Shown: piece by piece, positions 961 to 15,203 of the stretch
Numbering within the stretch: position 1 is the stretch's first letter
Layout of the letters: each line of letters starts with the position of its first letter
NCBI GenBank assembly: GCA_048882505.1
Contig: JBHLRO010000018.1
Coordinates: 1-24,000, forward strand
Length of the DNA: 24,000 nt
Direction: 5' to 3'
DNA from: Candidatus Thorarchaeota archaeon
Lineage (GTDB): Archaea > Asgardarchaeota > Heimdallarchaeia > Hodarchaeales > Hodarchaeaceae
The notes under the pieces: model-generated
What the model was told of the DNA's origin: nothing
The model's input: only the letters and a program-made list of their open reading frames with translations
Databases searched by the model: none
Translations under genes and position numbers: made by a program

Positions 961-1752
961 TTAACGGCTTTTCCGAGTTGCTATCCTTTCTGAAACGAAG
1001 TTGACTCGGCTGCAGAGTGCTATAAAGAGGTCATACATCCGCCTAAGATCCAAGGACTCATTAATGAGCGAATAGATTCTAATCGTTGGGTCGTCGGCAG
1101 AATCAATAGAAATCCGCACCAGTCCTTCTCGATTGTTGTAAATAGACTTAAGCAGATCTTTGTCACCAAGGAGAAAGAGACCGCTCTTCTGAGAAGTAGC
1201 TTTAATCAAAAAATACTCATCTAGGCTGGGAACGTTGAGAGTGATTGTATCAAGAGTGAATAACAGATCCTGATGCTTTCGGATTTGCCCTTCCTCCTTT
1301 TTTGGGATGATTTGAAGTTTTGTTTGGATTTTTCCTTTCTTGGCATTAGCTTCCAAAGCGATATAGTCCTTGGCTCCTGAAAACCATGAAATGATGACAG
1401 ACAACATCAGATGGCGTTCTTCCAGCGCAAAAACTACCCGAAAGTCTTTAAAAGGAGGTGAATAAGATCCTTTATAACGGGGAATTAGGAGGCCTCCATT
1501 GGAGGAGAGTTGGTCTACAATTAAGTCATCAAACTCCTGAGAGAACACATCAAGTAATAATTCACGATTTTTCTCAACGATTTTGTGGTTTTTTCTTCTG
1601 CCAGCCCAGAGCAAGTAGAAAGTATAGAATAGAATTAATGCAGGACCGATTAATGGGAGGACGAGATCCAACCAAGAGTAAGAGCCCGTCTGAAGGAAAA
1701 ATTGGCTCAGATTTTGAAAGAATTCCATCACTAGGTAAAAGAACGCCATCAT
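961..1752 (-). CDS. Hypothetical membrane-anchored protein (one N-terminal TM helix, ~200-aa soluble region of unknown fold)
   Basis: A 263-aa ORF with an ATG-ATG start. It has a hydrophobic helix LDLVLPLIGPALILFYTFYLLWAG followed by RRK. I recognise no motif in the remainder. It is co-directional with the JAMM gene and starts 45 nt downstream of it. Confidence 0.55.
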   Translation of the reverse strand: MMAFFYLVMEFFQNLSQFFLQTGSYSWLDLVLPLIGPALILFYTFYLLWAGRRKNHKIVEKNRELLLDVFSQEFDDLIVDQLSSNGGLLIPRYKGSYSPPFKDFRVVFALEERHLMLSVIISWFSGAKDYIALEANAKKGKIQTKLQIIPKKEEGQIRKHQDLLFTLDTITLNVPSLDEYFLIKATSQKSGLFLLGDKDLLKSIYNNREGLVRISIDSADDPTIRIYSLINESLDLRRMYDLFIALCSRVNFVSERIATRKSR

Positions 1753-1797
1753 TGAACCCAGCTGTAGGGAAGATTGCCGTCGTTAATAACTGTTGTT

Positions 1798-2340
1798 TCA
1801 CGGGGCGCTTTCTCTAATGTAGCTAGCAACCTCTTGCGCACGGAAGGGTCTTTTCTCTTGTTGCCCCACAACTTGGTAACATTGAAACACGGCCCGTCCG
1901 TTGCTTTCAATCTGGGTGGGATCAATAACCAAAGCAACAGATAACGCTTGGTGCAGCTGGAAGGAGTAGATATGGGTGGAAATATCAGTCTGGGACAGGA
2001 ATAGGCCGTACCCGGGATGTGAATGCCACCAACCCACACAATGGAGATCTTCCTCGAGAAGCTGTTCAAAGGAAGAAAAATCATCTTCGGAAAATTCAAC
2101 TGAGGTCTCATCACCTTCAGTGACAAACAGAAGTCTAGTGATGAGGAGTTCGTTGGTACGGAACTCTTTACCACCAAGGAGTCCAATGGCTTCACGAGGG
2201 ATTGCCTGCTGGGCGTGTTGAGTCATTTTATCTAAAAGGGAACCCAGAAGGGTAATTGATGAAACTTGGGTTTCTAATTGGATCGGCAGTTCTCTCGGAT
2301 CTTCCGATTCTGAACGGTTCGTTAAGTTCCTTTTTGGCAT
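1798..2340 (-). CDS. JAMM/MPN+ metalloprotease (Rpn11/CSN5-like deubiquitinase candidate)
   Basis: The complete JAMM signature is present: an upstream Glu (PREAIGLLGG) and HSHPGYGLFLSQTD, which equals H-x-H-x7-S-x2-D. ATG start. It begins 27 nt downstream of the E2 gene on the same strand. Confidence 0.9.
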   Translation of the reverse strand: MPKRNLTNRSESEDPRELPIQLETQVSSITLLGSLLDKMTQHAQQAIPREAIGLLGGKEFRTNELLITRLLFVTEGDETSVEFSEDDFSSFEQLLEEDLHCVGWWHSHPGYGLFLSQTDISTHIYSFQLHQALSVALVIDPTQIESNGRAVFQCYQVVGQQEKRPFRAQEVASYIRESAP

Positions 2341-2367
2341 GAAATGTCCCCCGTTGCAATGTAAAAG

Positions 2368-2913
2368 CTAGGAGGAAGCAAATTTTTTGGTCCAAGTGAC
2401 CGCCTTGTTCCAAAAGGTGCTGAAATCCTCTTTCATTTCTTTACCAGCATCAGGATTAAAGGGATCATTTGGATCAACTAGGTATTCTGGAAAATCGTTC
2501 GTTCCAGCTGTTTGATAGACTTCTAACATCATTTCTAGATGTTCAAACACGCTCGGGAGGGTGATGGTTTCTTTCCAGCCTCCAGTCTGTCCGAGGTTAT
2601 TCCAATTCACTAGACTTAAACAGACATTAGATCCCCATTTCCATCGTGTTTCCCCTACCGCAATGTTCGGATGATAAATCTGAGTAACGAAATTACAAAT
2701 AGGAGGTTTAAAAGGATAGCTGGGAGGCAATTCTACAGCGATTTCCCAGGTTCCACCTTCATAAGGAGTTCCTTCTCGGCCCTTGACCCAGGCTCTATAC
2801 TGATGCAGATCATTGTTTACGATTTTCCATTGTATTGGGCTCGATTTAGGAGGATAGACTTTGAGCATCCTCTTGAACTCTTCTCTTAGGCGTCTTGAGT
2901 GTAAATCCTGCAA
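2368..2913 (-). CDS. Ubiquitin-conjugating enzyme E2 (UBC fold, HPN triad and catalytic Cys present)
   Basis: Motifs seen: YPFKPPICNFVTQIYHPNI...GSNVCLSLV...GW..TITL...DPNDPFNPDAGKE...W. This is the canonical UBC order: YPxxPP flap, HPN, active-site Cys, then the C-terminal DPNxxxP helix region. The start is TTG at 2913, and there is no in-frame ATG that would retain the N-terminal helix (RRLREEFKRM). Confidence 0.9.
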   Translation of the reverse strand: MQDLHSRRLREEFKRMLKVYPPKSSPIQWKIVNNDLHQYRAWVKGREGTPYEGGTWEIAVELPPSYPFKPPICNFVTQIYHPNIAVGETRWKWGSNVCLSLVNWNNLGQTGGWKETITLPSVFEHLEMMLEVYQTAGTNDFPEYLVDPNDPFNPDAGKEMKEDFSTFWNKAVTWTKKFASS

Positions 2914-3379
2914 TGCGATGCCACCTTACTGATTGAGTGCGACCTAGGGGTCTACTATATATATTGAATTTTAAATCTATTACCCTAGTATAGGCGGCCT
3001 CAAAGGTTTTACTTATTTTCCTAGTCTTCTCCTCCACCAGAAGGCGAGTTGGATCTAGGCACCGTTGAACACTTTTAAAATAGTGCTTCAAATAGTGAAA
3101 TTCCTTCCAAGTGATCCCCTAATTCTTTCAAATACTATAATACTCTAGATAGCTGAATAAAAGCTTAAAAGATTTTTGAAATCATGGATAAAATCCCACT
3201 CGAGACATGATAATACTATGAATAGATCTGAGGTTTTCTCATCCAAAATTGAAATGAGAAAGAGCAGAAAGTTATTATAAAAAGAAGGACCGCAGAGAAC
3301 AGGATCTTCATCATGAAACTTTAAAAACCTGCAATCATGATTATGGGTAGATATTGCTATTGATTAAGAGGATCTCCCT
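2914..3379. promoter_or_regulatory. AT-rich divergent intergenic region between the E2 operon and the ZnR-Ubl-E1 operon (presumed bidirectional promoter region)
   Basis: A 466-nt spacer with several TATA-like tracts: tatatatattgaattttaaat near 2955-2975, tataatact/aataaaagcttaaaag near 3135-3170, ttattataaaaag near 3272-3284 and ctttaaaaacc near 3319-3329. It has no convincing ORF. The exact promoter elements were not determined. Confidence 0.3.
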
Positions 3380-4171
3380 ATGGCAGCGCTAACTGAAGTA
3401 AGTACCTGTAACGGCTGTGGGGCTCCTCTTCCTTTCAGACCAACAGCTGGGCAGGCGGTTAAATGTGAGTACTGTGATTTGACTAACTATTTGAAGAGAT
3501 CCGTAGCCCCTGCTGAAGTCGAACAAGGTTTGGATGAAGCGATCGAATCTGAAGTATATTACCAGATATACCAAACTGCTCAAGAGATTCTGGAAAATTT
3601 CCCAGGAGAGTATGTTGGTGATGAGATCGGCAAGCTCAGGATTAAAATGCAGGTCGGACAGTACGCTTTTACCCTTCTTCTTGTATTGGATGACCTACCA
3701 GATCGCCCCTATATTGACGGTCCAGCCAAATTACGTGAGATTTTAGATTGTGAGATGACAGAGCTAGAATCCATGAAAGAATGGCGACCTGGGGTAAGTT
3801 CCGTTTTGGAGGTGTTAGAGGAGATCCATCGCCGTGCCTCGGTCGCACTTCCGGAAGCAATGGGTGAGAGTCTAGCTTCAACTACTGGAGTGGTTCCAAC
3901 TGATAGAAAAGAACGGGATCCTCTGATTCAGAAGATTCTAAGTAATTATGATGCATCTGTTTCTAAAAAGGAGATATTAATTAGATTTTACGCGGAAACG
4001 GGCGATGTTATTAACTTTACCATTAAAAGGAAGAAGAATTTCCCTATTGGTCTTGAGAGCGAAATCCTTGCAAAATATCCGCTCATCCGTGGTCCCTTGG
4101 AGGATTATGCTAAAGGTCGAATTGATCTCCTGCAAACATTATCAGAAATTGAACGTTTATTATACGTTTAG
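3380..4171 (+). CDS. Zn-ribbon protein with a possible divergent UBC/UEV/RWD-like core (function unknown)
   Basis: ATG start. The N-terminus has CNGC-x15-CEYC (a four-Cys ribbon). Further on, YAFTLLLVLDDLPDRPYIDGPAKLREILDCEMTELESMKEWRPGVSSVLEVLEEI resembles the E2 pattern of YPxxPP flap ... C ... W-x-P-x-h-x-x-VL, but it lacks the HPN triad. It is the first gene of the plus-strand Ubl-E1 run. Confidence 0.55.
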   Translation: MAALTEVSTCNGCGAPLPFRPTAGQAVKCEYCDLTNYLKRSVAPAEVEQGLDEAIESEVYYQIYQTAQEILENFPGEYVGDEIGKLRIKMQVGQYAFTLLLVLDDLPDRPYIDGPAKLREILDCEMTELESMKEWRPGVSSVLEVLEEIHRRASVALPEAMGESLASTTGVVPTDRKERDPLIQKILSNYDASVSKKEILIRFYAETGDVINFTIKRKKNFPIGLESEILAKYPLIRGPLEDYAKGRIDLLQTLSEIERLLYV

Positions 4172-4266
4172 AAAAGGTACAAAGGTGAGTTTCGATTAGC
4201 AAGAAAAAAGATGTGGTCTGGGATTCAGGCTCAAAACGCGCGCCCTCCTCTGAGGGTATTGAAAAA

Positions 4267-4518
4267 ATGATCAAAGTTCGATTCAAGGATCCTCAATTGC
4301 CGCCTGATCAAAATGTCAAGGAGAAATATGTAAATCTGCAAGGAAATGTGTTTCAAGCAATTTCAGCGGCGCGCGATGCATTTAATATTCCTGAGGTAGT
4401 GCCCATCGCCCTATTGTATAAGGGACGTCGGTTAAATCCCTCGAACACCTTGAGTTCATATGGAATCGAGCAAAACTCGATGTTGATGATCGTCCCCGAC
4501 CAGATTAAAGGTGGGTAA
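4267..4518 (+). CDS. Ubiquitin-like beta-grasp modifier ending in Gly-Gly-stop
   Basis: MIKVRFKD...LLYKGRRLNPSNTLSSYGIEQNSMLMIVPDQIKGG*. The C-terminal half parallels ubiquitin ([34 protein letters not shown]). The codons are ggt ggg taa at 4510-4518. The ORF track starts at GTG 4213. I prefer ATG 4267, which gives 83 aa and matches the beta-1 strand start. Confidence 0.85.
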   Translation: MIKVRFKDPQLPPDQNVKEKYVNLQGNVFQAISAARDAFNIPEVVPIALLYKGRRLNPSNTLSSYGIEQNSMLMIVPDQIKGG

Positions 4519-4602
4519 CTCTTCTATTCTGAAGTCATAGAATCTGGTCATAGCTGGCAGGTCAACCTTACAAAAAAGGGAACGTCCGCCTGATTCAGTG
4601 TC

Positions 4603-5844
4603 GTGGAATACCAAATGATGACGGACTCTAGGGCTTCAAGGTATGATCGCCAAGAACGTCTTGTATTATGGGATCAACGGCTTATATCAAACTCTTGTGT
4701 CCTCATAGCAGGTGTTGGGGGAACCGGCAGCGAAGTAGCGAAAAACCTGGCACTTCTTGGAATTGGGAGGCTCATCCTAGTGGATCAAGATACAGTGGAA
4801 TACTCCAATCTCAATCGACAAATGTTGTTTAGCGAGAAGGATGTTGAGAAACGAAAGGTTGTTGCAGCGAAGCAGAACATAGCGGAGAACTTGAATCCTA
4901 ATCTTGAAATTGATATTCATAGCCAAACCCTCCAATCGATACCACAAAGGGTGTTTGAGGAAGTTGACATTATTGCAGGTTGTATAGACAATTTTCTGGG
5001 TAGACAATTTCTGAATGCACAAGCCATTGAACTGTACAAACCCTATATCGATTCTGCTACTGACGGTTTTTTTGGACAGGTTCAGTATGTAAAACATGAA
5101 ACCTCAGCATGCCTAGCATGTGATAATCCACTGCCGCCCGAAGAATTCCAGATTCTTACTGAACCGTGTACTTTAGTTGGGGTACCACGCATCAGAGAAC
5201 ATTGTGGCTGGAAGGCCTTATACGATTTTAATACAGCCTATCAACGGATGCCAGATGAGAATTCAACGGAGGAGCTAGCTTGGCTAATTGAGCGGGCCAA
5301 TCGCTATGCTGTCGAGTATAATTTCGGGCAATTTGAGAAGATGGAGCTTCTCCAGATGATACTCTTCCATGTTCCAAGTCTTGTGACCGTCAATGCTGTT
5401 ATTAGTGGCATTCAAAGCCAGGAAATCGTTAAGGCCCTTTTTCTCGAAAAGAAGTCTCAACTGAATAAGGATGAAAGAGCTACACTTGAGAGATTGCAGA
5501 AGGGTAATCGATACCGGATTCCCCATCTTACAATTTACTCTGCGTTGACTGGAACCGTTAATTCCTTCGATCTTGTCCCTGATCAAGAATGTTTAGTTTG
5601 TGGGTCATTATCTACTTCACGAAAAAAGCTAGCTGAGATCCGTGTAAGCAGGAACTCATTATTTCAATCCGTATTGGAAAAAATGGGTTATAGAAATCAT
5701 ACTGAGTACATCGGATTTCGAGGAAATTATCACATTCCAGAAGATGTAACCCTAGGGGAGGTTCTTTCTGATGGTGATCGGATCACGTTGAGTTCAATAA
5801 ACAATGACAATGAACTACGGTTGAAAGTTCGGTTTATTGACTAA
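4603..5844 (+). CDS. E1-like ubiquitin-activating (ThiF/MoeB/UBA-family adenylating) enzyme with a C-terminal beta-grasp-like extension
   Basis: RYDRQERLVLWDQRLISNSCVLIAGVGGTGSEVAKNLALLGIGRLILVDQDTVEYSNLNRQMLF is the classic Rossmann/nucleotide motif of the family. Two CxxC pairs are present (CLACD and CLVCG, a structural Zn site). The C-terminal ~70 aa (…LGEVLSDGDRITLSS…LRLKVRFID) looks beta-grasp/UFD-like. The start may be GTG 4603 or ATG 4615/4618. Confidence 0.9.
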   Translation: MEYQMMTDSRASRYDRQERLVLWDQRLISNSCVLIAGVGGTGSEVAKNLALLGIGRLILVDQDTVEYSNLNRQMLFSEKDVEKRKVVAAKQNIAENLNPNLEIDIHSQTLQSIPQRVFEEVDIIAGCIDNFLGRQFLNAQAIELYKPYIDSATDGFFGQVQYVKHETSACLACDNPLPPEEFQILTEPCTLVGVPRIREHCGWKALYDFNTAYQRMPDENSTEELAWLIERANRYAVEYNFGQFEKMELLQMILFHVPSLVTVNAVISGIQSQEIVKALFLEKKSQLNKDERATLERLQKGNRYRIPHLTIYSALTGTVNSFDLVPDQECLVCGSLSTSRKKLAEIRVSRNSLFQSVLEKMGYRNHTEYIGFRGNYHIPEDVTLGEVLSDGDRITLSSINNDNELRLKVRFID

Positions 5845-5882: not shown

Positions 5883-6233
5883 TTAATCGTCTGTTTTCGA
5901 GGGAATAAAAACTTTGATCTTCTTCCGTTCCTTAGGTTGAATTACGGGTATAGGGGGGTTAATATATGGTTTTTTATATCCTAACTCGGGTTCTACTGTA
6001 TCTTGCTTACCGAGCGAGGCAAGTTTATCGTAAAGCTGACTATAGATCTTATCCTTGGAGGGCTGTTGTTGATTGGATTTTTGAATAGGCTTGGAACGTT
6101 GATATCTCCTAGGTTGGGAAACGACATTGGCCTTCCCACAGCGAGGGCAAAACCAACGACCAGAAATCGGTTTATCTCTGGGAACATGACCACAATGTCG
6201 ACATTGTAAAGATTCTTCATTCTCTGGATTCAC
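5883..6233 (-). CDS. Small Zn-ribbon protein with a Lys/Pro/Gln-rich low-complexity tail (unknown function)
   Basis: CRHCGHVPRDKPISGRWFCPRCG (CxxC-x15-CxxC) at the N-terminus, followed by ~85 aa of polar low-complexity sequence. GTG start. It is a stand-alone gene, convergent with E1 and divergent from the 588-aa gene. Confidence 0.45.
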   Translation of the reverse strand: MNPENEESLQCRHCGHVPRDKPISGRWFCPRCGKANVVSQPRRYQRSKPIQKSNQQQPSKDKIYSQLYDKLASLGKQDTVEPELGYKKPYINPPIPVIQPKERKKIKVFIPSKTDD

Positions 6234-6425: not shown

Positions 6426-8192
6426 ATGATTTTCACAAACAGAGCCAAACGGTGGCTCTCTAAAGCACAGGCAACTGAAATTCCTCTTTTATTACCACAA
6501 GAAGACCGTACCGGGATTGCCGAGTTCCTGAGAGAAAAAATCGAAGCCAATGAGGTCTTTGGTATTGTTACTCCAGATGATACTACTTTCTTCCCTGATA
6601 AGTATATTGAACAAAACCTACGGCTCCAACTCCAAAAGCAGGGCTTCATTGACATCTGTGCTTTGATTGACCTGACCCAAGGTAAACTACCTGGGCGGAT
6701 ATTGGAATTGAAAATTCTGGCGCATGTCCAGGAAATAGATGGGTTTTTGGACATTATTTTTCGACGTTTTTTCACACCGCAGGGGGCAGAAAATTTCTTG
6801 AAACAATATTTAGCGAATAAGACCGTTGTGCCCTTAAAAACGATTTTGAATGACCTGTATTGGGGAGAAGACTACGTAGAAGCCATTTTAGACCTTCTAT
6901 CCGAGAAAAACCTTTTCCGTGGATACCTTGATCCAATTAAACAGCGATTATATAATTTTACAAACCTGAATTTCACTTCAGAAGTTGATCGGGAGAAGGC
7001 GAATAAGCAGCTAATTCGCTATATCAAGAGAAGCTTTCAACTGGGCGCCGAAGTAGCTATCAGTGATATTTGTGGGTTGACGGGATTTTCCCAAGAAGAG
7101 AGTATTCGTTTCCTGCAGAAAAATCGTGGATCCCTTAGTTTTGTGATTTCAACTAAGCGAAATTATGTATATCCCACTTTAGAGATCGTAATCAATATTT
7201 TGAGAGATCTTATTGTCTATCGAAAAGTTCCAATTGCATTCTGGGAACAGCGGCTTGATGTGGCAAAAATCGAGCTTTTAGGGCTATTACGAATCTTGAA
7301 TGGCAGCTTGAATGGCCAAATTTCGCCAACTACCTATTCAGGCCCTCTCCTACGCGAATGGTTTCGGAACGGTATTGATATCGAGGGATTGGCTGCAGAT
7401 CTAAATCTTGATCCCCTTCTTCTCCTCGGGCGCATCCGAACACTGGGAGAAAAATACGGATTAAGATTCATTGCGGGCGATACGGCCAATCCCTTTCTCC
7501 TCAAGGGCGTCCTAAGTTTCGAGATTTTTTGTCAGGTGGATACTTCTTCTTATCAAGATCCACATCTGTATTTTGAGTGCCAAAACTGTAAGCGAATATT
7601 GTGTAGCAATTGCAGGTCGGCGGGAAGCAAGCATAGCTGTCCTTTTTGTGAGAACATAGCGGCGTTCATTATTGATCTTCCACGGCACTGCCCTGATTGT
7701 AAGATTACCTACACGCATTCTTACAACCTAATAAGTACGGAAGAATGCTATTTCTGTAAAAAAGGCCCTTTGGCGAGCGGGTGGTTACCACCAAAGCCAA
7801 TATCCGATAAGCTCCTGGATCCCCATCTTTCAGAATTATTAGCTCATTCAGATTCAGAAATCCCATTGCAGGCGATAATTTCGACTTTGGGATGGTCTGA
7901 TGCAGAAGTAGTTGCCCATCTTGAAGAAATGATTATTTCTAACCAAATCAATGGCAATATCGACATATGGAATACTTCCCTCCGTCTTGAGCGAGCGCCC
8001 ACCTTGTTTCGTTGCAGTGTTTGTGAAAAACTTAAGACAGATAAAACTCGGTATAAATGTGTATCATGTAGCAATAACGTTTGTCTAACATGCCATGGTG
8101 ATATGCATACAGTAGGAATGGTTATCTGTCCCCAATGCAGTGGAGAGTTAAAACCAGAGGACTCTGGTACGTCATCTTCGAGTCAGGATTAG
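6426..8192 (+). CDS. Multi-winged-helix repeat protein with two Cys-rich Zn clusters (second ZZ-finger-like); function unknown, E3/adaptor candidate
   Basis: A 588-aa ORF with an ATG start and GAGGA upstream. Segments of the PCI/WH type recur at least six times, for example VVPLKTILNDLYWGEDYVEAILDLLSEKNLFRGYLD, VAISDICGLTGFSQEESIRFLQK...LSFVISTKRNYVYP and IPLQAIISTLGWSDAEVVAHLEEMIISNQINGNID. Cys cluster 1 spans aa 385-444 (nt 7578-7757) and has five CxxC pairs. Cys cluster 2 spans aa 530-571 (nt 8013-8138): CSVC-x11-(RYK)CVSC-x4-CLTCHGDMH-x8-CPQC. Confidence 0.7.
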   Translation: MIFTNRAKRWLSKAQATEIPLLLPQEDRTGIAEFLREKIEANEVFGIVTPDDTTFFPDKYIEQNLRLQLQKQGFIDICALIDLTQGKLPGRILELKILAHVQEIDGFLDIIFRRFFTPQGAENFLKQYLANKTVVPLKTILNDLYWGEDYVEAILDLLSEKNLFRGYLDPIKQRLYNFTNLNFTSEVDREKANKQLIRYIKRSFQLGAEVAISDICGLTGFSQEESIRFLQKNRGSLSFVISTKRNYVYPTLEIVINILRDLIVYRKVPIAFWEQRLDVAKIELLGLLRILNGSLNGQISPTTYSGPLLREWFRNGIDIEGLAADLNLDPLLLLGRIRTLGEKYGLRFIAGDTANPFLLKGVLSFEIFCQVDTSSYQDPHLYFECQNCKRILCSNCRSAGSKHSCPFCENIAAFIIDLPRHCPDCKITYTHSYNLISTEECYFCKKGPLASGWLPPKPISDKLLDPHLSELLAHSDSEIPLQAIISTLGWSDAEVVAHLEEMIISNQINGNIDIWNTSLRLERAPTLFRCSVCEKLKTDKTRYKCVSCSNNVCLTCHGDMHTVGMVICPQCSGELKPEDSGTSSSSQD

Positions 8193-9079
8193 CTGAGTTG
8201 GCTCTTATATTGCGCTAACTTCTTGGAGTACTTATCAGATAGTTCCTTGTATTTATCTTCTGAAATCTTCCCATTAAGGAACATTTCATCTGCTTGTTCC
8301 ACCATGAGTTCATATTTCTTGATTTTCTCTGCAATGTCATCAAACTGTTCTCGCTCTTCTGCCAAAGATCGCTGCTGTTCTAGAACCTGTTTTTCTACTT
8401 CATATGCCAGCAGAGATTGATACTCATCGGGAACCTTAAATCCCCCTATATCCAGTCCAACAAGTTCCAAGCCCCAGCGAGAAGTCTCAGGACCCAATTC
8501 CGCACGGGTCTGGATTTCAAGGCTGCGTCGTTCTCTCAATAATTCCGGAACTGTGTAACGGGACATCACATGCTTGACGGCCCCAATTATGGTTTGTTTC
8601 ACCCAGTTCTTTAGTTCCTCGCTTGAATAATACTGCCTGTGAGAGACTACATTTGAAATGAAATTTCGGGGATTAACTATCCTCATTCGGGAAATTCCGT
8701 AACAACCTATCATGACATTGTCTGCGGATAAAATCCCAGGCGTTCCCCATCTGATAACGAATTCTCGTTTACTTACCCAGATTATTTCGCTACCCGGGCG
8801 TTTTGCTAGCTTATCCAGTTCATATATTCCACTTCCTGCAACACCTACCAGTGTACCCGACTGTAGAAGTACAGCATTTTCAGGATCTTTGACAATAAAG
8901 CCATCATCTTTACGGAAACCATCTCGATCGTCAGAACGAACTCGTGAAACTAGCGAACCTCCATTCTCTTCACTAAAATCAGAGCTTAAGATGGTTTTTC
9001 CACGAAATCTTTTGGAACCAAGGTGTACTGCGTCGCCAATCCTGCGGAACAATCCCCCGAATTTCTCGACTTCTGTCAT
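8189..9079 (-). CDS. SPFH/Band-7 superfamily protein of the YdjI-like (Band_7_1) type with a C-terminal coiled coil
   Basis: The pattern ...AVLLQSGTLVGVAGSGIYEL...IIWVSKREFVIRWGTPGIL...GCYGISRMRIVNPRNF...WGLELVGLDIGGFKVPDEY matches the soluble YdjI/COG4260-type SPFH domain as I remember it. A heptad-rich tail follows (EQQRSLAEEREQ...KYKELSDKYSKKLAQYK). The ORF track starts at TTG 9091, overlapping the EAP30 stop. ATG 9079 lies 5 nt after that stop. Confidence 0.65.
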   Translation of the reverse strand: MTEVEKFGGLFRRIGDAVHLGSKRFRGKTILSSDFSEENGGSLVSRVRSDDRDGFRKDDGFIVKDPENAVLLQSGTLVGVAGSGIYELDKLAKRPGSEIIWVSKREFVIRWGTPGILSADNVMIGCYGISRMRIVNPRNFISNVVSHRQYYSSEELKNWVKQTIIGAVKHVMSRYTVPELLRERRSLEIQTRAELGPETSRWGLELVGLDIGGFKVPDEYQSLLAYEVEKQVLEQQRSLAEEREQFDDIAEKIKKYELMVEQADEMFLNGKISEDKYKELSDKYSKKLAQYKSQLS

Positions 9080-9084
9080 CTTTT

Positions 9085-10053
9085 TCACCAATCATCGCCA
9101 TAAAGGCCAGGAAAGTAGTACTGGTATCCCGAATCAAGAGAGGAAACTTTTCTTGCAATCTTTTGCTTAACTAGACCTTCCAAGACTCGTATCACACGTT
9201 GCTGTTCCCATTTTGTGTTTAAAACAACATCTTCAAGTGTAACAAAACCTTTGTCAACTGCAAGACTAAAAACGCGTTCAGCATCTTTACCCAATGAAAC
9301 GGGTACAAATTCAACGATTTTGACCCCTGAACGTTCTGAAATGCCCTCGATCAGTGATTGTTTCTGCAGATTTTTACACGCGTTTTCGATGTCCTTGACA
9401 GAGAACTTCACATCAGGAACCTGATCTTTTAGTGCGGTATAAAGGTTTGCAAGAGAAATATAGCCTCCGGAACTTGCGCGCAGATTTTTTCCATATTGGA
9501 GAACTAAATCTGAGATTTGGTCTCTAAATTTGCCCCTACCAAACAAACGGGGTCTTTCAGTTGCATCTAGCGCTGTGATTGTTAAAGCCCTACCTTCCTT
9601 ACGTAAAAGTTCTCTTTCAAGTTGCTGGATCCGCGTATCATAACGCTTTTGAAGATCCCTGATCTGTTCAGTCGAAACGCTGGCGCCATCGGCCAATTTT
9701 TGCTGAATATGGATTACTTCCCCCAAGCGAGCGATATGTTCACCAATTTCCTTTATGGTATTGCGGACCTCAATTCCTTCTTCACCAAAATCAAGATCTT
9801 CTGCTAGCTTTTGTGACTGTTCTGCAATTCTTTCACAGAGCACCGAGGCCAATAATTGGGCTACTCGAATTTCGCCACTTGTCTGGAGATCGGACTTGGT
9901 CTGGTCAGGATGAAGAATAAAATCAGGTATTGTTTCCGAACTGTAACGGATTTCTTCAAATTTCGTAAATAGATTCATAGAAATATCCGCAGCACTTCGG
10001 GCTTTTGTTGAAATACTATTGTTTAAGGCAATTAACGCCTTATTTGCCTTCAT
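9085..10053 (-). CDS. ESCRT-II-type EAP30 domain protein (Vps22/Vps36-like) with a long N-terminal coiled-coil region
   Basis: The C-terminal ~165 aa reads GGYISLANLYTALKDQ...SVKDIENACKNLQKQSLIEGISERSGVKIVEF...GFVTLEDVVLNTKWEQQRVIRVLEGLVKQKIARKVSSLDSGYQYYFPGLY. This is the tandem winged-helix EAP30 pattern, including the terminal Y-x-FP. The ORF track starts at TTG 10092. ATG 10053 (MKANKALIAL...) is preferred. Confidence 0.85.
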   Translation of the reverse strand: MKANKALIALNNSISTKARSAADISMNLFTKFEEIRYSSETIPDFILHPDQTKSDLQTSGEIRVAQLLASVLCERIAEQSQKLAEDLDFGEEGIEVRNTIKEIGEHIARLGEVIHIQQKLADGASVSTEQIRDLQKRYDTRIQQLERELLRKEGRALTITALDATERPRLFGRGKFRDQISDLVLQYGKNLRASSGGYISLANLYTALKDQVPDVKFSVKDIENACKNLQKQSLIEGISERSGVKIVEFVPVSLGKDAERVFSLAVDKGFVTLEDVVLNTKWEQQRVIRVLEGLVKQKIARKVSSLDSGYQYYFPGLYGDDW

Positions 10054-10255
10054 AAAATACTCTTGCAACGCTCTGAATCTCCAGAGGATCAAGTCTTTTT
10101 ATTCGATCAAAGCGAGTCCCTGCTTTCATCCTTAAAAACCTTGGCTTCTAGTATTGAAAAGCTGCTTTTCGAGGGAATTCCCAAACAAATATTAGCCCCC
10201 TCAAGAGATTGACCACGTTCTATCGTGGGAAAGAGAAATATTCCGAGTTTTACTA

Positions 10256-10753
10256 TTATTGGGGAGTTTTAGAAACCTTCAATGCCATAAGGTATGCCGC
10301 CTCATAATCACGGTAGTAATGTCGTATTTCTTTTACGATCTGAAATCCTACCTTTTGATATAAATTGATAGCAGGTTGATTGGATATCCTCACTTCCAAG
10401 AATAGTTCATTGGCGCCTGCTGCAATCATTGCTGCCATGGACTCTTTAATTAGTTTGGTCCCCATACCTTGACGTCTGTAAGGCGGGAGGACAGCCAGAC
10501 TAACGGTATGACCCTTTTTTGCTCTATGAAAAAGCGAAAAATGACTCATTCCTGACTCCAAACGGGCCATTGTATATCCTACTACTTGAGAATCGACTTC
10601 GCAAATAATGAACCCCGAAGGTAGCTCAGAATAGACGGTCCGAAAAAAATGTTCAGGATAATTTTCGGGCAAACAGATGCGATTAATTTCCTTTACTTGA
10701 TCAAGGAATTTCAATTCAAACGGGCGAATAATAATACCAGACTGTTCGGTCAT
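10256..10753 (-). CDS. GNAT N-acetyltransferase (RimI / archaeal Ard1-Naa10-like N-alpha-acetyltransferase)
   Basis: An acetyl-CoA motif LAVLPPYRRQGMGTKLI (R/Q-x-x-G-x-G/A) is present, along with ...LEVRISNQPAINLYQKVGF... and a typical ~165-aa size. Its start overlaps the Nop10 stop by 4 nt (ATGA). Confidence 0.85.
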   Translation of the reverse strand: MTEQSGIIIRPFELKFLDQVKEINRICLPENYPEHFFRTVYSELPSGFIICEVDSQVVGYTMARLESGMSHFSLFHRAKKGHTVSLAVLPPYRRQGMGTKLIKESMAAMIAAGANELFLEVRISNQPAINLYQKVGFQIVKEIRHYYRDYEAAYLMALKVSKTPQ

Positions 10754-10929
10754 AGGTGTCCCCTTTGTCTAGCAATCTCTTTCATCTGGCGCCTTAATTC
10801 CCAAAAACGATCGTGGAGAGAAAATTTAGGGGGATATGCCGAGTGGAATTCCAATCCACAATTTTCACATATAGCTTTGTCTTGTATGATGGTATAATGA
10901 CCATTTGGGCATTTCCTCAAAAGACGCAT
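10750..10929 (-). CDS. nop10: H/ACA RNP subunit Nop10
   Basis: MRLLRKCPNGHYTIIQDKAICENCGLEFHSAYPPKFSLHDRFWELRRQMK parallels archaeal Nop10 (…KKCPKCGLYTLKEICPKCGEKT…PPKFSLEDRWGKYRR…). It sits in the conserved S27e-aIF2alpha-Nop10 gene order. The track starts at GTG 10935; ATG 10929 is preferred. Confidence 0.85.
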   Translation of the reverse strand: MRLLRKCPNGHYTIIQDKAICENCGLEFHSAYPPKFSLHDRFWELRRQMKEIARQRGHL

Positions 10930-10955
10930 TGTCACACCTTAGGGTTCAAGGATGA

Positions 10956-11741
10956 TTACTTACGTTCAAAGGATATCTCTGTGTCGTATGTAGCAAAGAA
11001 TTGCGAGACTTCTCCTTGAACATCCTTCCAAATCTTTTCTGCTTCTCTCCAATCGATACTTTCGATGACACATCTGTATGTTGGAGGAGAAATTATTTGA
11101 AGGTTGAATTTACTCCCTTTATGCTTATTTCTAAAGTTTTTATCATAAGAAGTAAAAAAATCAGCAAGTAAATCCGCACCATTCGCCTCATAACAGGTGA
11201 TATTAACGTGACCAGTCAATTGAACCGTAGGAGGCTCCAGCTCCTTCACAGCCAATTGATAGATTTCTTTTGCCGCTTCCTTCGGGATATCTAATTTTAC
11301 TAAGTGATTAGCATTTTTATCCCGGACTGACATTAATCCTTCGTAGATGGAACCGAATTTACGAAATAGAACTTTTTCAACATCCTCAACAGGAATGCCC
11401 GCTTTTTCACATGCTACTGCCACAATTCCCCTTGCACGATTCTCTTGTTTGAACTCATTCAGTTTTTGTCTACGCTGAGGCTCAGAAACCTGTTTGATGG
11501 ACATGTCGATCTCCCCACGGTCAATATCCACCCTTAATATTTTCGCTACTGTTCGTTGGCCCTCTCGAATGTAGCTACGGATATGGCGTACCCAAGTGCG
11601 ACTTAATTCTGAAATGTGAACGAACCCTACCTCTGCTCCAAGGGTTTCGTAATCGAAAATCTCAAAATAGGCGCCATGGTTAGTTACTTTGGAACAGGTT
11701 CCGATAACCAATTCCCCGACTGCTGGATATCCATCTTCCAA
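10956..11741 (-). CDS. eif2a: Translation initiation factor aIF2 alpha subunit
   Basis: The N-terminal S1 domain reads GELVIGTCSKVTNHGAYFEIFDY...GFVHISELSRTWVRHIRSYIREGQRTVAKILRVDIDRGEIDMSIKQV, followed by helical and alpha-beta domains of the expected length. TTG start, with GGTAGGTG 8 nt upstream. Confidence 0.9.
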   Translation of the reverse strand: MEDGYPAVGELVIGTCSKVTNHGAYFEIFDYETLGAEVGFVHISELSRTWVRHIRSYIREGQRTVAKILRVDIDRGEIDMSIKQVSEPQRRQKLNEFKQENRARGIVAVACEKAGIPVEDVEKVLFRKFGSIYEGLMSVRDKNANHLVKLDIPKEAAKEIYQLAVKELEPPTVQLTGHVNITCYEANGADLLADFFTSYDKNFRNKHKGSKFNLQIISPPTYRCVIESIDWREAEKIWKDVQGEVSQFFATYDTEISFERK

Positions 11742-11751
11742 TTATTCACAC

Positions 11752-11946
11752 CTACCTTGGATCTAACACTTCGAGGACTTCCCCTATAATATACGCCATC
11801 CCAGCTCTCGGTTTTGCAAGAATGTTTCCACAAACACGACATTCCACCTGGCTAGTTGCATGGGAAAAGATTTCTTGCACATTACCACACTCACACGAGA
11901 CCTTGAGGAAATTACTTCGAGTAGTAGGAATACGTTTTTCTTTCAC
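11752..11946 (-). CDS. rps27e: Ribosomal protein S27e
   Basis: SNFLKVSCECGNVQEIFSHATSQVECRVCGNILAKPRAGMAYI is the C4 zinc-ribbon signature of eS27. It is 64 aa long with a GTG start. Confidence 0.9.
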   Translation of the reverse strand: MKEKRIPTTRSNFLKVSCECGNVQEIFSHATSQVECRVCGNILAKPRAGMAYIIGEVLEVLDPR

Positions 11947-14089: not shown

Positions 14090-14584
14090 TTGATCGACCC
14101 GAGACGATTTGATACGGTCTTAAGCAAAATCATTAAGAGTGAGCCTGGTATTAAAAAGGTCATACTTGTAGATCGGACAGGGCTAACAATTGCTCATGCC
14201 AGCAAGTATGATTATGCCTCAATAGATGTGGATGGGATCGGGGCCATTGCCTCAGCTGTGTTCATGGCCTCCGCAGAACAAGGCTCAAATTTAACCATCG
14301 GAGGATTAGGAATTGTAACCTCTGAATTTGATACAGGAAAAATCTTTGCGTCTTCATGTGGGAAAGGCATACTAACCCTGATTTCGGATGCGGAAGTCAA
14401 TATCGGGATGATTCGTCTTTTGATGCGGCAGGCCAATGATGAGCTTGCTAGTACCTTAGATGAGTTTTTAGCAGGAAAACCCACGAGAGTACCCTCTAGT
14501 GGGATGACAGCGGCCCCTGAGGTTCGTACTAGCTTGGAAAAGGATGAACTCGAAGCAGCTTTGAGAGAACTGGAGAAATTTTAG
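14090..14584 (+). CDS. mglB: Roadblock/LC7 domain protein (MglB-like)
   Basis: ...GIKKVILVDRTGLTIAHASK...IGAIASAVFMASAEQGSNLTIGGLGIVTSEFDTGKIFASSCGKGILTLISDAEVNIGMIRLLMRQA is the typical Roadblock alpha-beta-alpha pattern, followed by an acidic C-terminal tail. TTG start with GGAG upstream. It lies immediately upstream of the MglA-like GTPase. Confidence 0.8.
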   Translation: MIDPRRFDTVLSKIIKSEPGIKKVILVDRTGLTIAHASKYDYASIDVDGIGAIASAVFMASAEQGSNLTIGGLGIVTSEFDTGKIFASSCGKGILTLISDAEVNIGMIRLLMRQANDELASTLDEFLAGKPTRVPSSGMTAAPEVRTSLEKDELEAALRELEKF

Positions 14585-14612
14585 ATCATTCTGTGTAGTG
14601 GTCAGATGCCAC

Positions 14613-15197: not shown

Positions 15198-15203
15198 GGT
15201 AGA

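What the first reader, a model, noticed from the sequence alone, without database searches (positions are those of the whole stretch)
8189..10092. ESCRT-II-type EAP30 gene translationally coupled to a YdjI-type SPFH gene
Seen: the stop of the EAP30 (Vps22/36-like) ORF (TGA, 9085-9087) lies 5 nt before ATG 9079 of the SPFH ORF, or overlaps its TTG 9091 start. The two are almost certainly co-transcribed. The position downstream of Vps22/36-like, which I would expect a Vps25-like gene to occupy, is taken by the SPFH protein.

Established, to my recollection: in Bacillus subtilis the YdjI SPFH/flotillin-like protein is encoded with, and needed for membrane recruitment of, the PspA homologue YdjF. 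PspA/Vipp1 belong to the ESCRT-III superfamily.

Inference: an SPFH membrane-microdomain scaffold paired with an ESCRT component in an archaeon would echo that bacterial pairing. It may represent an undescribed membrane-targeting partner for archaeal ESCRT-II.
Basis: partly seen in the sequence, partly recalled or inferred. Interest (0 to 1): 0.65.

Follow-up and report, generated by a model that had tools for sequence, protein, structure and literature searches.

The report
Conserved Vps22-like/SPFH gene pair in Asgards
An Asgard archaeon encodes a long relative of the ESCRT-II protein Vps22 in a tight operon with a membrane-scaffold (SPFH) protein. The same pair recurs in 11 of 12 distantly related lineages, usually beside ubiquitin-type enzymes and in some beside a UFL1-like protein, which points to a membrane module that I could not find described.

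Summary
On the minus strand an EAP30/Vps22-like gene (10068-9085) ends 5 nt before the ATG (9079) of an SPFH gene with no transmembrane segment (9079-8189), and its stop codon lies inside a Shine-Dalgarno-like GGTGA. This junction is conserved in all 20 related species genomes (Hodarchaeales-type Heimdallarchaeia) and 5 metagenome contigs.

The EAP30 protein belongs to a "long" class (306-378 aa, extra N-terminal helical domain). An SPFH gene lies immediately downstream in 11 of 12 independent long-EAP30 lineages. It lies near none of 24 canonical short EAP30 genes, of which at least 22 have Vps25 within 10 kb.

Neighbours are mostly ubiquitin-type genes (E1, E2 or UFC1-like E2, JAB, Ub-like). 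In this window the convergent 588-aa neighbour is a tandem winged-helix/zinc-finger protein whose closest sequence and structure matches are human UFL1. Vps25 is absent within 10 kb here, and a Vps25-like gene follows the pair in only one lineage.

The pair is real and ancient, but it looks like a ubiquitin-linked paralogous module rather than the canonical ESCRT-II/ESCRT-III route. Physical interaction is inferred, not shown.

The parts
9085..10068 (-). Long Vps22-like (EAP30) gene, 327 aa, TTG start. It has an N-terminal helical extension (about residues 1-157), a linker, and two winged-helix domains (178-318). The C-terminal tail is ...YYFPGLYGDDW.
   Evidence: Pfam EAP30. Profile against PDB: human SNF8/Vps22 at 6e-22, Vps36 at 3e-8. 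AF2 model pLDDT 81. Foldseek top hits are Vps22 chains 3cuq_A, 2zme_A and 1u5t_A. 84 homologues found, Hod-type ones 57-100% identical.
9077..9091 (-). Gene junction. The EAP30 stop TGA (9087-9085) lies inside the SD-like motif TGGTGA, followed by a 5-nt spacer and the SPFH ATG (9079-9077).
   Evidence: Sequence. The same architecture, with 5-12 nt gaps, occurs in all 20 orthologous loci. A similar stop-SD-ATG arrangement occurs in the distant locus L062.
8189..9079 (-). SPFH/Band 7 gene, 296 aa, no transmembrane segment. It has a conserved N-terminal FGGLFRRIGD amphipathic and basic peptide, an SPFH domain (about 62-237), and a C-terminal helical tail with a SHOCT-like motif that is not significant.
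   Evidence: Pfam Band_7 and Band_7_1. PDB hits are archaeal stomatin, flotillin-2 and stomatin. 80 homologues, all >=63% identical and all Hod-type. No TM window and a high hydrophobic moment at residues 4-18. Alignment of partner SPFH proteins. SHOCT_2 scores only E=0.37 here, while SHOCT scores 4.7e-5 in the L052 orthologue.
6426..8192 (+). UFL1-like tandem winged-helix/zinc-finger protein, 588 aa, convergent to the SPFH gene with stop codons overlapping at 8190-8191. It has six WH domains (1-362), an invariant Cys cluster (369-444), a PCI-type WH (466-521) and a RING-like finger (528-578).
   Evidence: Profile against PDB: human UFL1 chains at 1.6e-7 to 2.8e-6, RING fingers weakly. AF2 pLDDT 80, pTM 0.67. 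The top 7 Foldseek hits are all UFL1, with 8ohd_A at 6.5e-10. Pfam E3_UFM1_ligase is sub-threshold in 3 orthologues. The gene is syntenic in all 20 Hod loci and lies co-directionally just after SPFH in L046.
5883..6233 (-). Small zinc-ribbon protein (116 aa), conserved between the UFL1-like gene and E1.
   Evidence: Weak Pfam zinc-ribbon hits. Syntenic in 19 of 20 Hod loci.
4603..5844 (+). E1-type adenylyltransferase (ThiF/UBA family), 413 aa.
   Evidence: Pfam ThiF 1e-50. NCBIfam ThiF, MoeB and Ube1 sub-family hits. Syntenic.
4213..4518 (+). Ubiquitin-like protein, 101 aa, ending in ...IKGG.
   Evidence: Pfam Rad60-SLD 4e-7 and ubiquitin 4e-6. Sequence.
3380..4171 (+). Conserved 263-aa protein with an N-terminal CxxC...CxxC zinc knuckle. 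Function unknown.
   Evidence: No Pfam hit below 0.03. Syntenic.
2368..2913 (-). E2 ubiquitin-conjugating enzyme, 181 aa, with the HPN...C motif.
   Evidence: Pfam UQ_con 5e-23. Sequence.
1798..2340 (-). JAB/MPN metalloprotease, a putative deubiquitinase.
   Evidence: Pfam Prok-JAB 5e-13 and JAB 1.4e-11.
961..1752 (-). Conserved 263-aa single-pass membrane protein (TM at 27-50). It is a candidate membrane anchor of the cluster; this is speculative.
   Evidence: Hydropathy. Weak CCDC47 hit at E=0.016. Syntenic.

Best explanation
The two genes form an ancient, co-transcribed and probably translationally coupled operon. It encodes (a) a long paralogue of ESCRT-II Vps22, with two C-terminal winged-helix domains and an extra N-terminal helical domain, and (b) a YdjI-like SPFH protein with no transmembrane segment.

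I propose that the two proteins form a complex. The SPFH protein would oligomerise into a ring or basket that sits peripherally on the cytoplasmic face of the membrane, through its amphipathic and basic N-terminus and perhaps a membrane partner. The N-terminal extension that marks the long Vps22-like class would dock on it. The winged-helix domains would then recruit further winged-helix and zinc-finger partners: here the UFL1-like 588-aa protein, elsewhere PCI/zinc-ribbon proteins. They would also bring in the neighbouring ubiquitin-type E1/E2/JAB machinery or its modified substrates.

The module would therefore be a ubiquitin(-like)-linked membrane-microdomain platform. It would run parallel to the canonical ESCRT-II(Vps22-Vps25) to ESCRT-III gene cluster rather than being part of it.

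Shown: domain identities, operon geometry, wide conservation of the pair, its exclusivity to the long class, and the neighbourhood content.

Inferred: the physical complex, membrane binding, which domain contacts which, and the link to conjugation.
For: Geometry and conservation in the close clade:
- The stop-in-SD junction is conserved in 21 genomes.
- Full synteny GINS-S27e-eIF2a-Nop10-GNAT-EAP30L-SPFH / UFL1-like / Zn-ribbon / E1 / Ub / 263 aa / E2 / JAB holds in the 20 species genomes, as far as each contig reaches.
- SPFH is the most conserved member (71-97% identity, against 57-94% for EAP30L and 42-90% for the UFL1-like protein).

Conservation beyond the clade:
- An exhaustive profile search found many long EAP30 clusters.
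- In 11 of 12 independent lineages examined the next gene on the same strand is SPFH, with gaps from -17 to 136 nt: the Hod clade, L043, L046, L047, L049, L051, L052, L053, L054, L055 and L062. The exception is L050.
- Source labels include Jordarchaeaceae and 'Odinarchaeota' MAGs.

Exclusivity:
- 0 of 24 canonical 236-247-aa EAP30 loci hold an SPFH gene within about 10 kb.
- At least 22 of those 24 loci hold Vps25.

Neighbourhood:
- E1, JAB or E2 genes are adjacent in L043, L051, L054, L062 and the Hod clade.
- A UFL1-like or PCI/Zn-ribbon protein is adjacent in the Hod clade, L046, L052 and L049.

Protein features:
- None of the three proteins has a TM segment, and the SPFH N-terminus is amphipathic and basic. 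YdjI likewise lacks a TM segment and needs membrane partners (PMC8581546).

Precedents in the literature:
- SPFH-ESCRT contextual links in archaea (PMC10936438).
- Asgard origin of UFL1 and DDRGK1 (PMC10183829) and of Ufm1 (PMC12962969).
- SPFH-attributed baskets on the inner membrane face of a cultured Heimdallarchaeon (bioRxiv 10.1101/2025.11.06.686947).
Against: - No interaction was predicted or measured.
- The long EAP30 proteins do not form one clean clade in a crude NJ tree. The class may therefore be polyphyletic or poorly resolved.
- The UFL1-like N-terminal winged-helix array accompanies the pair only in the Hod clade and L046. Elsewhere only a PCI/Zn-ribbon protein is present, or nothing.
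- In L053 a Vps25-like gene directly follows the pair, which fits a role inside ESCRT-II.
- A motif scan found only one EAP30 gene in each of the 20 Hod genomes, including three chromosome-level assemblies. In this clade the long protein may be the only Vps22.
- Membrane association of a TM-less SPFH protein is an assumption.
Confidence: 0.5

Rival explanations
1. The long Vps22-like protein is the genuine ESCRT-II core subunit of these archaea. It pairs with a Vps25 encoded elsewhere, and the SPFH protein is its membrane-targeting or microdomain receptor upstream of ESCRT-III/Vps4, echoing YdjI-PspA.
For: - The closest sequence and structure matches are Vps22.
- Only one EAP30 gene was detected per Hod genome, including complete chromosomes CP070760, CP070695 and CP070665.
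- L053 has EAP30L -> SPFH -><- Vps25-like.
- YdjI is needed for PspA localisation (PMC8581546).
- Makarova et al. propose an early SPFH-ESCRT link (PMC10936438).
Against: - The pair is not next to Vps25, Vps4 or Snf7 in 11 of 12 lineages.
- It co-exists with a full canonical cluster in MAG CAZHRF01 (L038 and L043).
- LC_3, classed as Hodarchaeota in PMC10936438 supplementary file 9, has a canonical EAP30-Vps20-Vps24-Vps4-Vps25 cluster with a short EAP30.
- The scan behind 'one EAP30 per genome' was motif-based and not exhaustive.
Confidence: 0.25
2. A proto-UFMylation-type E3 platform. The UFL1-like protein, the long Vps22-like protein (in a DDRGK1-like adaptor role) and the SPFH anchor would form a membrane-bound scaffold E3. 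It would modify membrane-proximal targets such as ribosomes with a Ub/Ufm1-like modifier.
For: - Sequence and fold matches to UFL1.
- UFC1-like E2 genes beside the pair in L043, L051 and L054.
- The EAP30L model also hits the DDRGK1-UFL1 chimera 8b9x at E=2.9e-3.
- UFL1, DDRGK1 and Ufm1 homologues are reported in Asgards (PMC10183829, PMC12962969).
- The pair lies next to translation genes in two lineages.
Against: - The window's modifier and E2 match ubiquitin and UQ_con, not Ufm1 or UFC1.
- Pfam E3_UFM1_ligase stays below its cut-off.
- The UFL1-like array is present in only 2 of 12 lineages.
- The UFC1 hits are weak (22.8-27.9 bits, cut-off 25).
- The ribosomal neighbourhood may be coincidental.
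Confidence: 0.12
3. A soluble cage rather than a membrane scaffold. The TM-less SPFH protein would form a cytosolic, vault-like or encapsulating assembly that stores or regulates the Vps22-like protein, with no membrane role.
For: - No TM segment.
- Band-7-type shoulder domains build vault shells, and Asgard MVP homologues are reported (PMC12962969).
Against: - The conserved amphipathic and basic N-terminal peptide resembles peripheral membrane anchors.
- The TM-less YdjI still works at the membrane (PMC8581546).
- A single-pass membrane protein is conserved in the cluster.
Confidence: 0.06
4. Conserved co-transcription without direct interaction. The two products would act separately, for example as independently acting stress proteins.
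For: No interaction data exist. Housekeeping genes also lie nearby in the Hod clade.
Against: - The immediate adjacency survives extreme divergence (23-44% identity) and complete turnover of the surrounding genes in 11 lineages.
- The adjacency is restricted to the long class.
- The junction is built for coupled translation.
Confidence: 0.07

Closest known systems
Eukaryotic and Asgard ESCRT-II core subunit Vps22/SNF8 (Pfam EAP30; asCOG cog.002769 of Makarova et al. 2024)
   Same: Tandem winged-helix C-terminal half preceded by helices. The best sequence (6e-22) and fold (4.9e-8) matches are human Vps22. The conserved ...YYFPG motif is shared with canonical Asgard Vps22.
   Different: About 80-130 extra N-terminal residues. 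It is not clustered with Vps25, Vps4, Snf7, Vps23 or Vps28. It is always followed by SPFH. It co-exists with a canonical copy in one MAG.
Bacillus subtilis pspA-ydjGHI (samGHI): TM-less SPFH protein YdjI/SamI that localises the ESCRT-III-superfamily protein PspA
   Same: An SPFH protein without a membrane anchor and with a charged N-terminus, encoded in an operon with an ESCRT-related protein. A zinc-ribbon/membrane partner sits in the locus. The Pfam Band_7_1 type matches (PMC8581546). That YdjI itself belongs to Band_7_1 is my own knowledge and was not tested here.
   Different: The partner here is ESCRT-II-like (winged helix), not ESCRT-III-like. No YdjG/H homologues were identified. The context is ubiquitin enzymes, not an envelope-stress regulon.
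'Meth_adaptin' archaeal ESCRT loci with an SPFH component (Makarova et al. 2024, mBio, PMC10936438)
   Same: An SPFH protein with a coiled coil and a zinc ribbon, encoded within an archaeal ESCRT-related neighbourhood. The authors already drew the YdjI/PspA analogy.
   Different: Those loci are built around Vps4, ESCRT-III and adaptin-appendage/GOLD proteins in methanogens. Here there is no Vps4, ESCRT-III or adaptin gene; the partner is a Vps22 paralogue and the hosts are Asgards. The main text of that paper, and the stored part of its supplement, do not describe this pair.
Eukaryotic UFM1 E3 ligase complex (UFL1-DDRGK1/UFBP1-CDK5RAP3) at the ER membrane
   Same: The window's 588-aa neighbour has a UFL1-like tandem winged-helix array. 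The complex would be membrane-tethered through a partner. UFC1-like E2 genes lie beside the pair in three lineages.
   Different: The archaeal protein adds Cys-rich and RING-like fingers. Pfam's UFL1 model stays sub-threshold. The local modifier and E2 are ubiquitin-type. The proposed tether would be SPFH plus a Vps22-like protein, not a DDRGK1 transmembrane helix.
SPFH scaffolds coupled to quality-control enzymes (HflK/C-FtsH; ERLIN1/2-RNF170). These systems are cited from my own knowledge.
   Same: An oligomeric SPFH assembly concentrating a protein-modifying or degrading machine, here a putative RING/WH ligase, at a membrane patch. It works like this by analogy.
   Different: No protease or ERAD component is present here, and the analogy is untested.

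Membership tests
ESCRT-II Vps22/Vps36 (EAP30) family | EAP30 domain, that is two tandem winged-helix domains after an N-terminal helical segment | tested here: met
   Pfam EAP30 scores 35.3 bits against a cut-off of 26.8. Profile against PDB gives SNF8 at 6e-22. The AF2 model shows WH1 at 178-253 and WH2 at 261-318. Foldseek top hits are Vps22.
ESCRT-II Vps22/Vps36 (EAP30) family | Genomic association with Vps25, the usual state in Asgards (Hatano 2022) | tested here: not met
   There is no Vps25-like ORF in the window or in the 20 Hod loci, even at E<=10. Vps25 is present in at least 22 of 24 canonical loci. It follows the pair in only 1 of 12 long-class lineages (L053).
ESCRT-II Vps22/Vps36 (EAP30) family | Assembly into a Y-shaped complex with two Vps25 subunits and hand-over to ESCRT-III (Vps20) | not testable with these tools
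   This needs multimer modelling or biochemistry.
ESCRT-II Vps22/Vps36 (EAP30) family | Clustering with ESCRT-I (Vps23/Vps28), ESCRT-III or Vps4 genes | tested here: not met
   The window and the Hod loci hold none of these genes. The canonical layout is shown for L032.
SPFH / Band 7 superfamily | SPFH domain above curated thresholds | tested here: met
   Band_7 scores 65 bits (cut-off 23.6) and Band_7_1 scores 49.3 bits (cut-off 24). PDB hits are stomatin and flotillin.
YdjI-type (Band_7_1, TM-less) SPFH proteins | No transmembrane anchor, and a charged N-terminus | tested here: met
   No 19-residue window reaches mean hydropathy >=1.6. Residues 4-18 are amphipathic and are followed by KRFRGK. 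YdjI's properties are taken from PMC8581546.
YdjI-type (Band_7_1, TM-less) SPFH proteins | Operon with a PspA/ESCRT-III-superfamily gene and YdjG/H-type membrane proteins | tested here: not met
   No Snf7 or PspA gene is present in the window or the loci. The partner is winged-helix, ESCRT-II-like.
SPFH / Band 7 superfamily | Formation of large ring or cage oligomers on membranes | not testable with these tools
   Only monomer prediction was available, and no model of the SPFH protein was made.
UFL1 (E3 UFM1-protein ligase 1), for the 588-aa neighbour | N-terminal array of tandem winged-helix domains homologous to UFL1 | tested here: met
   Profile against PDB gives UFL1 chains at 1.6e-7 to 2.8e-6, with query 24-169 aligned to UFL1 37-249. 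The top 7 Foldseek hits are all UFL1, E down to 6.5e-10 and probability 1.0, but TM-scores are low (0.19-0.54).
UFL1 (E3 UFM1-protein ligase 1), for the 588-aa neighbour | Pfam E3_UFM1_ligase (PF09743) at gathering score | tested here: not met
   The window protein gives no hit. Orthologues L016, L019 and L046 score 18.1-20 bits against a cut-off of 23.2.
UFL1 (E3 UFM1-protein ligase 1), for the 588-aa neighbour | Works with UFC1 and UFM1, and is completed by the DDRGK1 winged helix | tested here: inconclusive
   UFC1-like E2 genes lie beside the pair in L043, L051 and L054 (22.8-27.9 bits, cut-off 25). The window's E2 and modifier are UQ_con and ubiquitin-like. DDRGK1 similarity is weak, at E=0.49.
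Meth_adaptin ESCRT system (Makarova 2024) | Vps4 and ESCRT-III plus adaptin-appendage/GOLD proteins together with SPFH | tested here: not met
   None of these components is present in the window or the related loci.

The most novel reading that the evidence does not exclude
Asgard archaea would carry an ancient, previously unrecognised membrane platform. In it an SPFH ring anchors a Vps22-like winged-helix adaptor and, in the lineage nearest this window, a UFL1-like scaffold ligase, so that ubiquitin-type conjugation is coupled to a membrane microdomain. This would tie together the ancestries of ESCRT-II and the UFM1 E3 ligase, both tandem winged-helix machines, and would give a prokaryotic precursor of SPFH-organised ubiquitin signalling such as ERLIN/RNF170 or flotillin/ESCRT-0.
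Probability: 0.25. Interest if true: 0.85.

Novelty: new variant of a known kind. Interest (0 to 1): 0.7.

Why it matters
ESCRT, ubiquitin and UFM1 machineries are central to models of how the eukaryotic endomembrane system arose from an Asgard host. How Asgard ESCRT-II-type proteins reach membranes is unknown, because they lack the eukaryotic GLUE and PH lipid-binding modules.

A gene pair conserved across several Asgard lineages at least, with a junction built for coupled translation, gives a concrete and testable candidate for that missing membrane link. It also shows that 'Vps22-like' genes in Asgard ESP catalogues fall into two context classes: short with Vps25, and long with SPFH. This affects presence/absence inferences about ESCRT-II.

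The neighbouring UFL1-like protein places an Asgard UFL1 homologue in a defined genomic module for what appears to be the first time in the literature I could search. That suggests what its 'UFM1-independent function' (PMC10183829) might be.

SPFH baskets have just been seen by cryo-ET on the membrane of a cultured Heimdallarchaeon, so the hypothesis can now be tested experimentally.

Tried and rejected
1. AlphaFold on a linker-fused EAP30L+SPFH paired alignment, to look for an interface.
2. Finding Vps25, Vps4 or a second Vps22 of this clade.
 - The Vps25 profile search returned no hit I could assign to the clade.
 - L044 (Vps4->Vps25, no EAP30) is of uncertain taxonomy. A ≥90%-identical cluster-mate of its Vps4 carries a 'Lokiarchaeota' label.
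 - Supplementary tables of PMC10936438 are truncated before the relevant genomes.
 - Hatano's supplements do not mention B3_Heim.
3. A metagenome scan with a broad SPFH alignment failed because no conserved stretch was available. The narrower alignment returned only six close relatives.
4. A SHOCT domain in the SPFH tail is not significant in the window protein (E=0.37).
5. NCBIfam gave nothing for the three core proteins.
6. TTG 9091 and TTG 10092 as start codons were rejected on orthologue alignments.
7. Vps25 hidden among the unannotated 263-aa ORFs was rejected. There is no hit at E<=10 with filters off.
8. The NJ tree of winged-helix regions is too weakly resolved to claim that the long class is monophyletic.
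9. Small ORFs beside distant pairs were checked for Ub/Ufm1 folds by Pfam, with no hits.

Full report
**1. What is in the sequence**

Two minus-strand ORFs fill 8189-10092.

- The upstream product matches Pfam EAP30/Vps36 at E=1.3e-8 and 35.3 bits, above the 26.8-bit cut-off, over residues 182-310.
- The downstream product matches Band_7 (1.2e-17) and Band_7_1 (6.2e-13), both above their cut-offs.
- Homologue alignments move the EAP30 start to TTG 10068, giving 327 aa.
- They also fix the SPFH start at ATG 9079. All orthologues begin M-[AT]-E there.

The window is from an Asgard archaeon of the Hodarchaeales-type Heimdallarchaeia.

- Most labelled homologues carry Hodarchaeota, Hodarchaeales or Heimdallarchaeota names.
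- The window is full of eukaryote-signature genes: Arf-like GTPases, Roadblock/LC7, and E1, E2, Ub-like and JAB genes.

**2. Is the adjacency more than chance?**

A motif-seeded scan of one genome per GTDB species returned 43 EAP30 loci.

All 20 loci with a 57-94% identical EAP30 protein share the window's synteny, as far as each contig reaches. The order is GINS, S27e, eIF2-alpha, Nop10, GNAT, EAP30, SPFH on one strand, then a convergent 588-aa gene, a small zinc-ribbon gene, E1, Ub-like, a 263-aa gene, E2, JAB, a 263-aa membrane protein and Arf.

In all 21 sequences the EAP30 stop lies 5-12 nt before the SPFH ATG. It is embedded in TGG-TAG-GTGA or TGG-TGA, a Shine-Dalgarno-like GGTGA. This is the classic layout for co-transcription and coupled translation. 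Coupling itself is inferred.

- SPFH is the most conserved protein of the block: 71-97% identity, against 57-94% for EAP30 and 42-90% for the 588-aa protein.
- A reciprocal metagenome scan seeded with the SPFH protein found six contigs. All five that extend upstream carry the EAP30 gene.

**3. Two classes of Asgard EAP30 genes**

The other 22 loci from the scan encode the known 236-247-aa Asgard Vps22.

- In L032 the layout is UEV-Vps23-Vps28 fusion, a 104-aa gene, EAP30, then convergent Vps25, Vps4 and Snf7.
- An Asgard Vps25 profile finds Vps25 within 10 kb in at least 22 of 24 canonical loci.
- It finds none in the window or the 20 Hod loci, even at E<=10 with filters off.
- A broad profile of partner SPFH proteins finds no SPFH gene in any canonical locus.

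The window protein is about 85 residues longer at the N-terminus than the canonical form.

An exhaustive HMMER search of 1.84 billion cluster representatives gave 617 EAP30 hits. Many are 'long' proteins of 300-380 aa, less than 50% identical to one another. I looked up the genomic context of ten of these.

| Locus | Arrangement |
|---|---|
| L046 | GINS-S27e-eIF2a-GNAT-EAP30L-SPFH-588 aa protein, all co-directional |
| L047 | Ras/Arf-EAP30L-SPFH, MAG labelled 'Odinarchaeota' |
| L049 | EAP30L-SPFH-zinc-ribbon protein |
| L051 | two tandem EAP30 genes-SPFH-UFC1-like E2, with JAB and ThiF opposite |
| L052 | EAP30L-SPFH-PCI/zinc-ribbon protein, Jordarchaeaceae MAG |
| L053 | FHA-EAP30L-SPFH, then a convergent Vps25-like gene |
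| L054 | UFC1-like E2-EAP30L-SPFH |
| L055 | EAP30L-SPFH with a 17-nt overlap |
| L062 | JAB-EAP30L-SPFH-E2 |
| L050 | downstream ORF cut by the contig end, not recognisably SPFH |

L043, from the first scan, reads E1-JAB-UFC1-like E2-EAP30L-SPFH. It comes from the same MAG as the canonical cluster L038.

Counting the Hod clade as one lineage, 11 of 12 independent long-EAP30 lineages have SPFH as the next gene on the same strand. The gaps run from -17 to 136 nt. None of the 24 canonical loci does.

The surrounding genes differ almost completely between lineages, so it is the pair itself that is conserved.

**4. The proteins**

*EAP30L*

- A profile search of PDB sequences gives human SNF8/Vps22 at 6e-22, yeast Vps22 at 1e-13 and Vps36 at 3e-8.
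- The AF2 model has mean pLDDT 81. It shows two confident N-terminal helical hairpins with a small beta-hairpin (2-126), further helices (134-157), a low-confidence linker (159-169) and two winged helices (178-318).
- Foldseek ranks Vps22 chains first (4.9e-8), then Vps36, then the DDRGK1-UFL1 chimera 8b9x (2.9e-3) and Vps25.
- A crude NJ tree groups the canonical proteins together and leaves the long ones in several deep branches. I do not claim monophyly.

*SPFH*

- The nearest solved sequences are archaeal stomatin, flotillin-2 and stomatin.
- It has no transmembrane segment.
- Residues 4-18 (VEKFGGLFRRIGDAVHLG) have the highest helical hydrophobic moment and are followed by KRFRGK. The FGGLF-x-[RK]IGD peptide recurs in distant partners.
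- A C-terminal [FL]L-x-G-x-[IL]S-x-E-x-Y motif recurs in most full-length partners. It scores as SHOCT in L052 at 4.7e-5, but not significantly in the window protein.
- In lacking a TM anchor it resembles B. subtilis YdjI/SamI, which needs the membrane proteins YdjG/H and localises PspA (PMC8581546; bioRxiv 10.64898/2026.02.06.704340).

**5. The third gene**

The convergent 588-aa gene (6426-8192) has a stop codon that overlaps the SPFH stop. All source annotations call it hypothetical.

- A nine-sequence profile hits human UFL1 chains first in PDB: 1.6e-7 to 2.8e-6, with query 24-169 aligned to UFL1 37-249. Its last Cys cluster weakly matches RING fingers.
- Pfam E3_UFM1_ligase is sub-threshold in three orthologues, at 18-20 bits against a cut-off of 23.2.
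- The AF2 model has pLDDT 80 and pTM 0.67. It shows six tandem winged helices, a poorly modelled invariant Cys-rich segment, a PCI-type winged helix and a RING-like finger.
- The top seven Foldseek hits are all UFL1, with E down to 6.5e-10. TM-scores are low, as expected for a flexible multi-domain array.
- In L046 the orthologue follows SPFH directly on the same strand.
- In L052 only the PCI/zinc-ribbon part is present.

Picchianti et al. [quoted passage not shown] Köstlbacher et al. (PMC12962969) reported Asgard Ufm1 homologues. Neither paper, nor any other I could search, links these to an SPFH/Vps22-like operon.

**6. Interpretation**

The strongest inference is that EAP30L and SPFH act together, most likely as a complex. 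The supporting observations are:

- immediate adjacency that persists at 23-44% identity while all neighbours change;
- restriction of the adjacency to the class with the N-terminal extension;
- a junction built for coupled translation.

The recurrent neighbours are ubiquitin-type enzymes (five lineages) and winged-helix/zinc-finger proteins (three or four lineages). ESCRT-III and Vps4 never appear. I therefore favour a ubiquitin(-like)-linked membrane platform.

In this model the SPFH protein provides an oligomeric, peripherally membrane-bound scaffold. The Vps22-like protein is the adaptor that brings in winged-helix partners such as the UFL1-like protein.

- the motif scan saw only one EAP30 gene per Hod genome, including three complete chromosomes;
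- L053 puts a Vps25-like gene right after the pair.

I could not establish whether this clade has a separate canonical Vps22 and Vps25. LC_3, which Makarova et al. class as Hodarchaeota, does have a canonical EAP30-Vps20-Vps24-Vps4-Vps25 cluster.

**7. What is already known, and novelty**

- Makarova et al. 2024 (PMC10936438) described an SPFH component in methanogen 'Meth_adaptin' ESCRT loci. [quoted passage not shown] SPFH'. The concept is therefore not new.
- Hatano et al. 2022 (PMC9192718) plotted the B3_Heim region, which corresponds to L016, but the text does not mention SPFH.
- I found no description of the Asgard long-Vps22/SPFH pair, its breadth, its exclusivity, or its association with a UFL1-like protein.

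I rate it a new variant of a known kind, with interest about 0.7.

**8. Limits**

- No interaction was predicted or measured.
- Taxon labels of MAGs are inconsistent.
- Context sampling covered 10 of several dozen long-EAP30 clusters.
- The genome scan was motif-based.
- Membrane binding of the SPFH protein is inferred from sequence alone.

Noticed in passing
window 8189-8192: The stop codons of the convergent SPFH gene (TAA, 8191-8189) and the UFL1-like gene (TAG, 8190-8192) overlap by 2 nt, which leaves no room for terminators. In the distant locus L046 the same two genes are co-directional and abutting. The Hod-clade arrangement therefore looks like an inversion of an ancestral three-gene operon.
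   Followed up: partly
window 961-5844 (and L001-L020): A complete ubiquitin-type set is conserved in order next to the pair. It comprises E1, a Ub-like protein ending in a free ...KGG, an E2 with HPN...C, a JAB protease, two unannotated 263-aa proteins (one with an N-terminal CxxC...CxxC knuckle, one single-pass membrane protein with a weak CCDC47 hit at E=0.016) and a 116-aa zinc-ribbon protein.
   Followed up: partly
L051:590-4359: Two tandem long EAP30 genes (348 and 346 aa) precede a 483-aa SPFH gene. This is reminiscent of the Vps22/Vps36 heterodimer, and a UFC1-like E2, JAB and ThiF lie adjacent.
   Followed up: no
L053:583-2793: This is the only case where a Vps25-like gene (163 aa; Asgard Vps25 profile 3e-26; Pfam ESCRT-II 22.5 bits, below cut-off) lies convergent immediately after the EAP30L-SPFH pair. 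An FHA-domain gene lies upstream. The contig is only 3.1 kb.
   Followed up: partly
window 9088-9120 (EAP30L C-terminus): The long Vps22-like proteins of the Hod clade end in an acidic run plus Trp (...FPGLYGD[DENS][DGNSE]W). P0210 ends ...EEDEEW and L043 ends ...TNDEE. Canonical forms end ...FPGLGG. This could be a docking motif.
   Followed up: no
window 14090-16275 and 355-930: Roadblock/LC7 - Arf-like GTPase - Roadblock/LC7 genes, plus a further Arf gene, flank the region and are syntenic in the clade. Small GTPase genes also sit beside the pair in L046 and L047.
   Followed up: no
window 10256-11946: The conserved archaeal S27e-eIF2alpha-Nop10 block is followed by a RimI-like GNAT acetyltransferase directly upstream of the EAP30L gene, with a 187-nt spacer. 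The same order occurs in the distant L046 lineage, so the pair has sat beside translation genes for a long time.
   Followed up: no
L043:4684-4908: A run of N (scaffold gap) follows the 215-aa SPFH ORF, so the true C-terminus of that SPFH protein is unknown.
   Followed up: yes
(source names): Near-identical proteins of this clade are labelled Heimdallarchaeota, Hodarchaeota, Hodarchaeales, Promethearchaeota, Hermodarchaeota or Thorarchaeota archaeon in public records. Some EAP30L proteins are misnamed 'translation initiation factor 2B subunit' by JGI. Taxon and product names here are unreliable.
   Followed up: no
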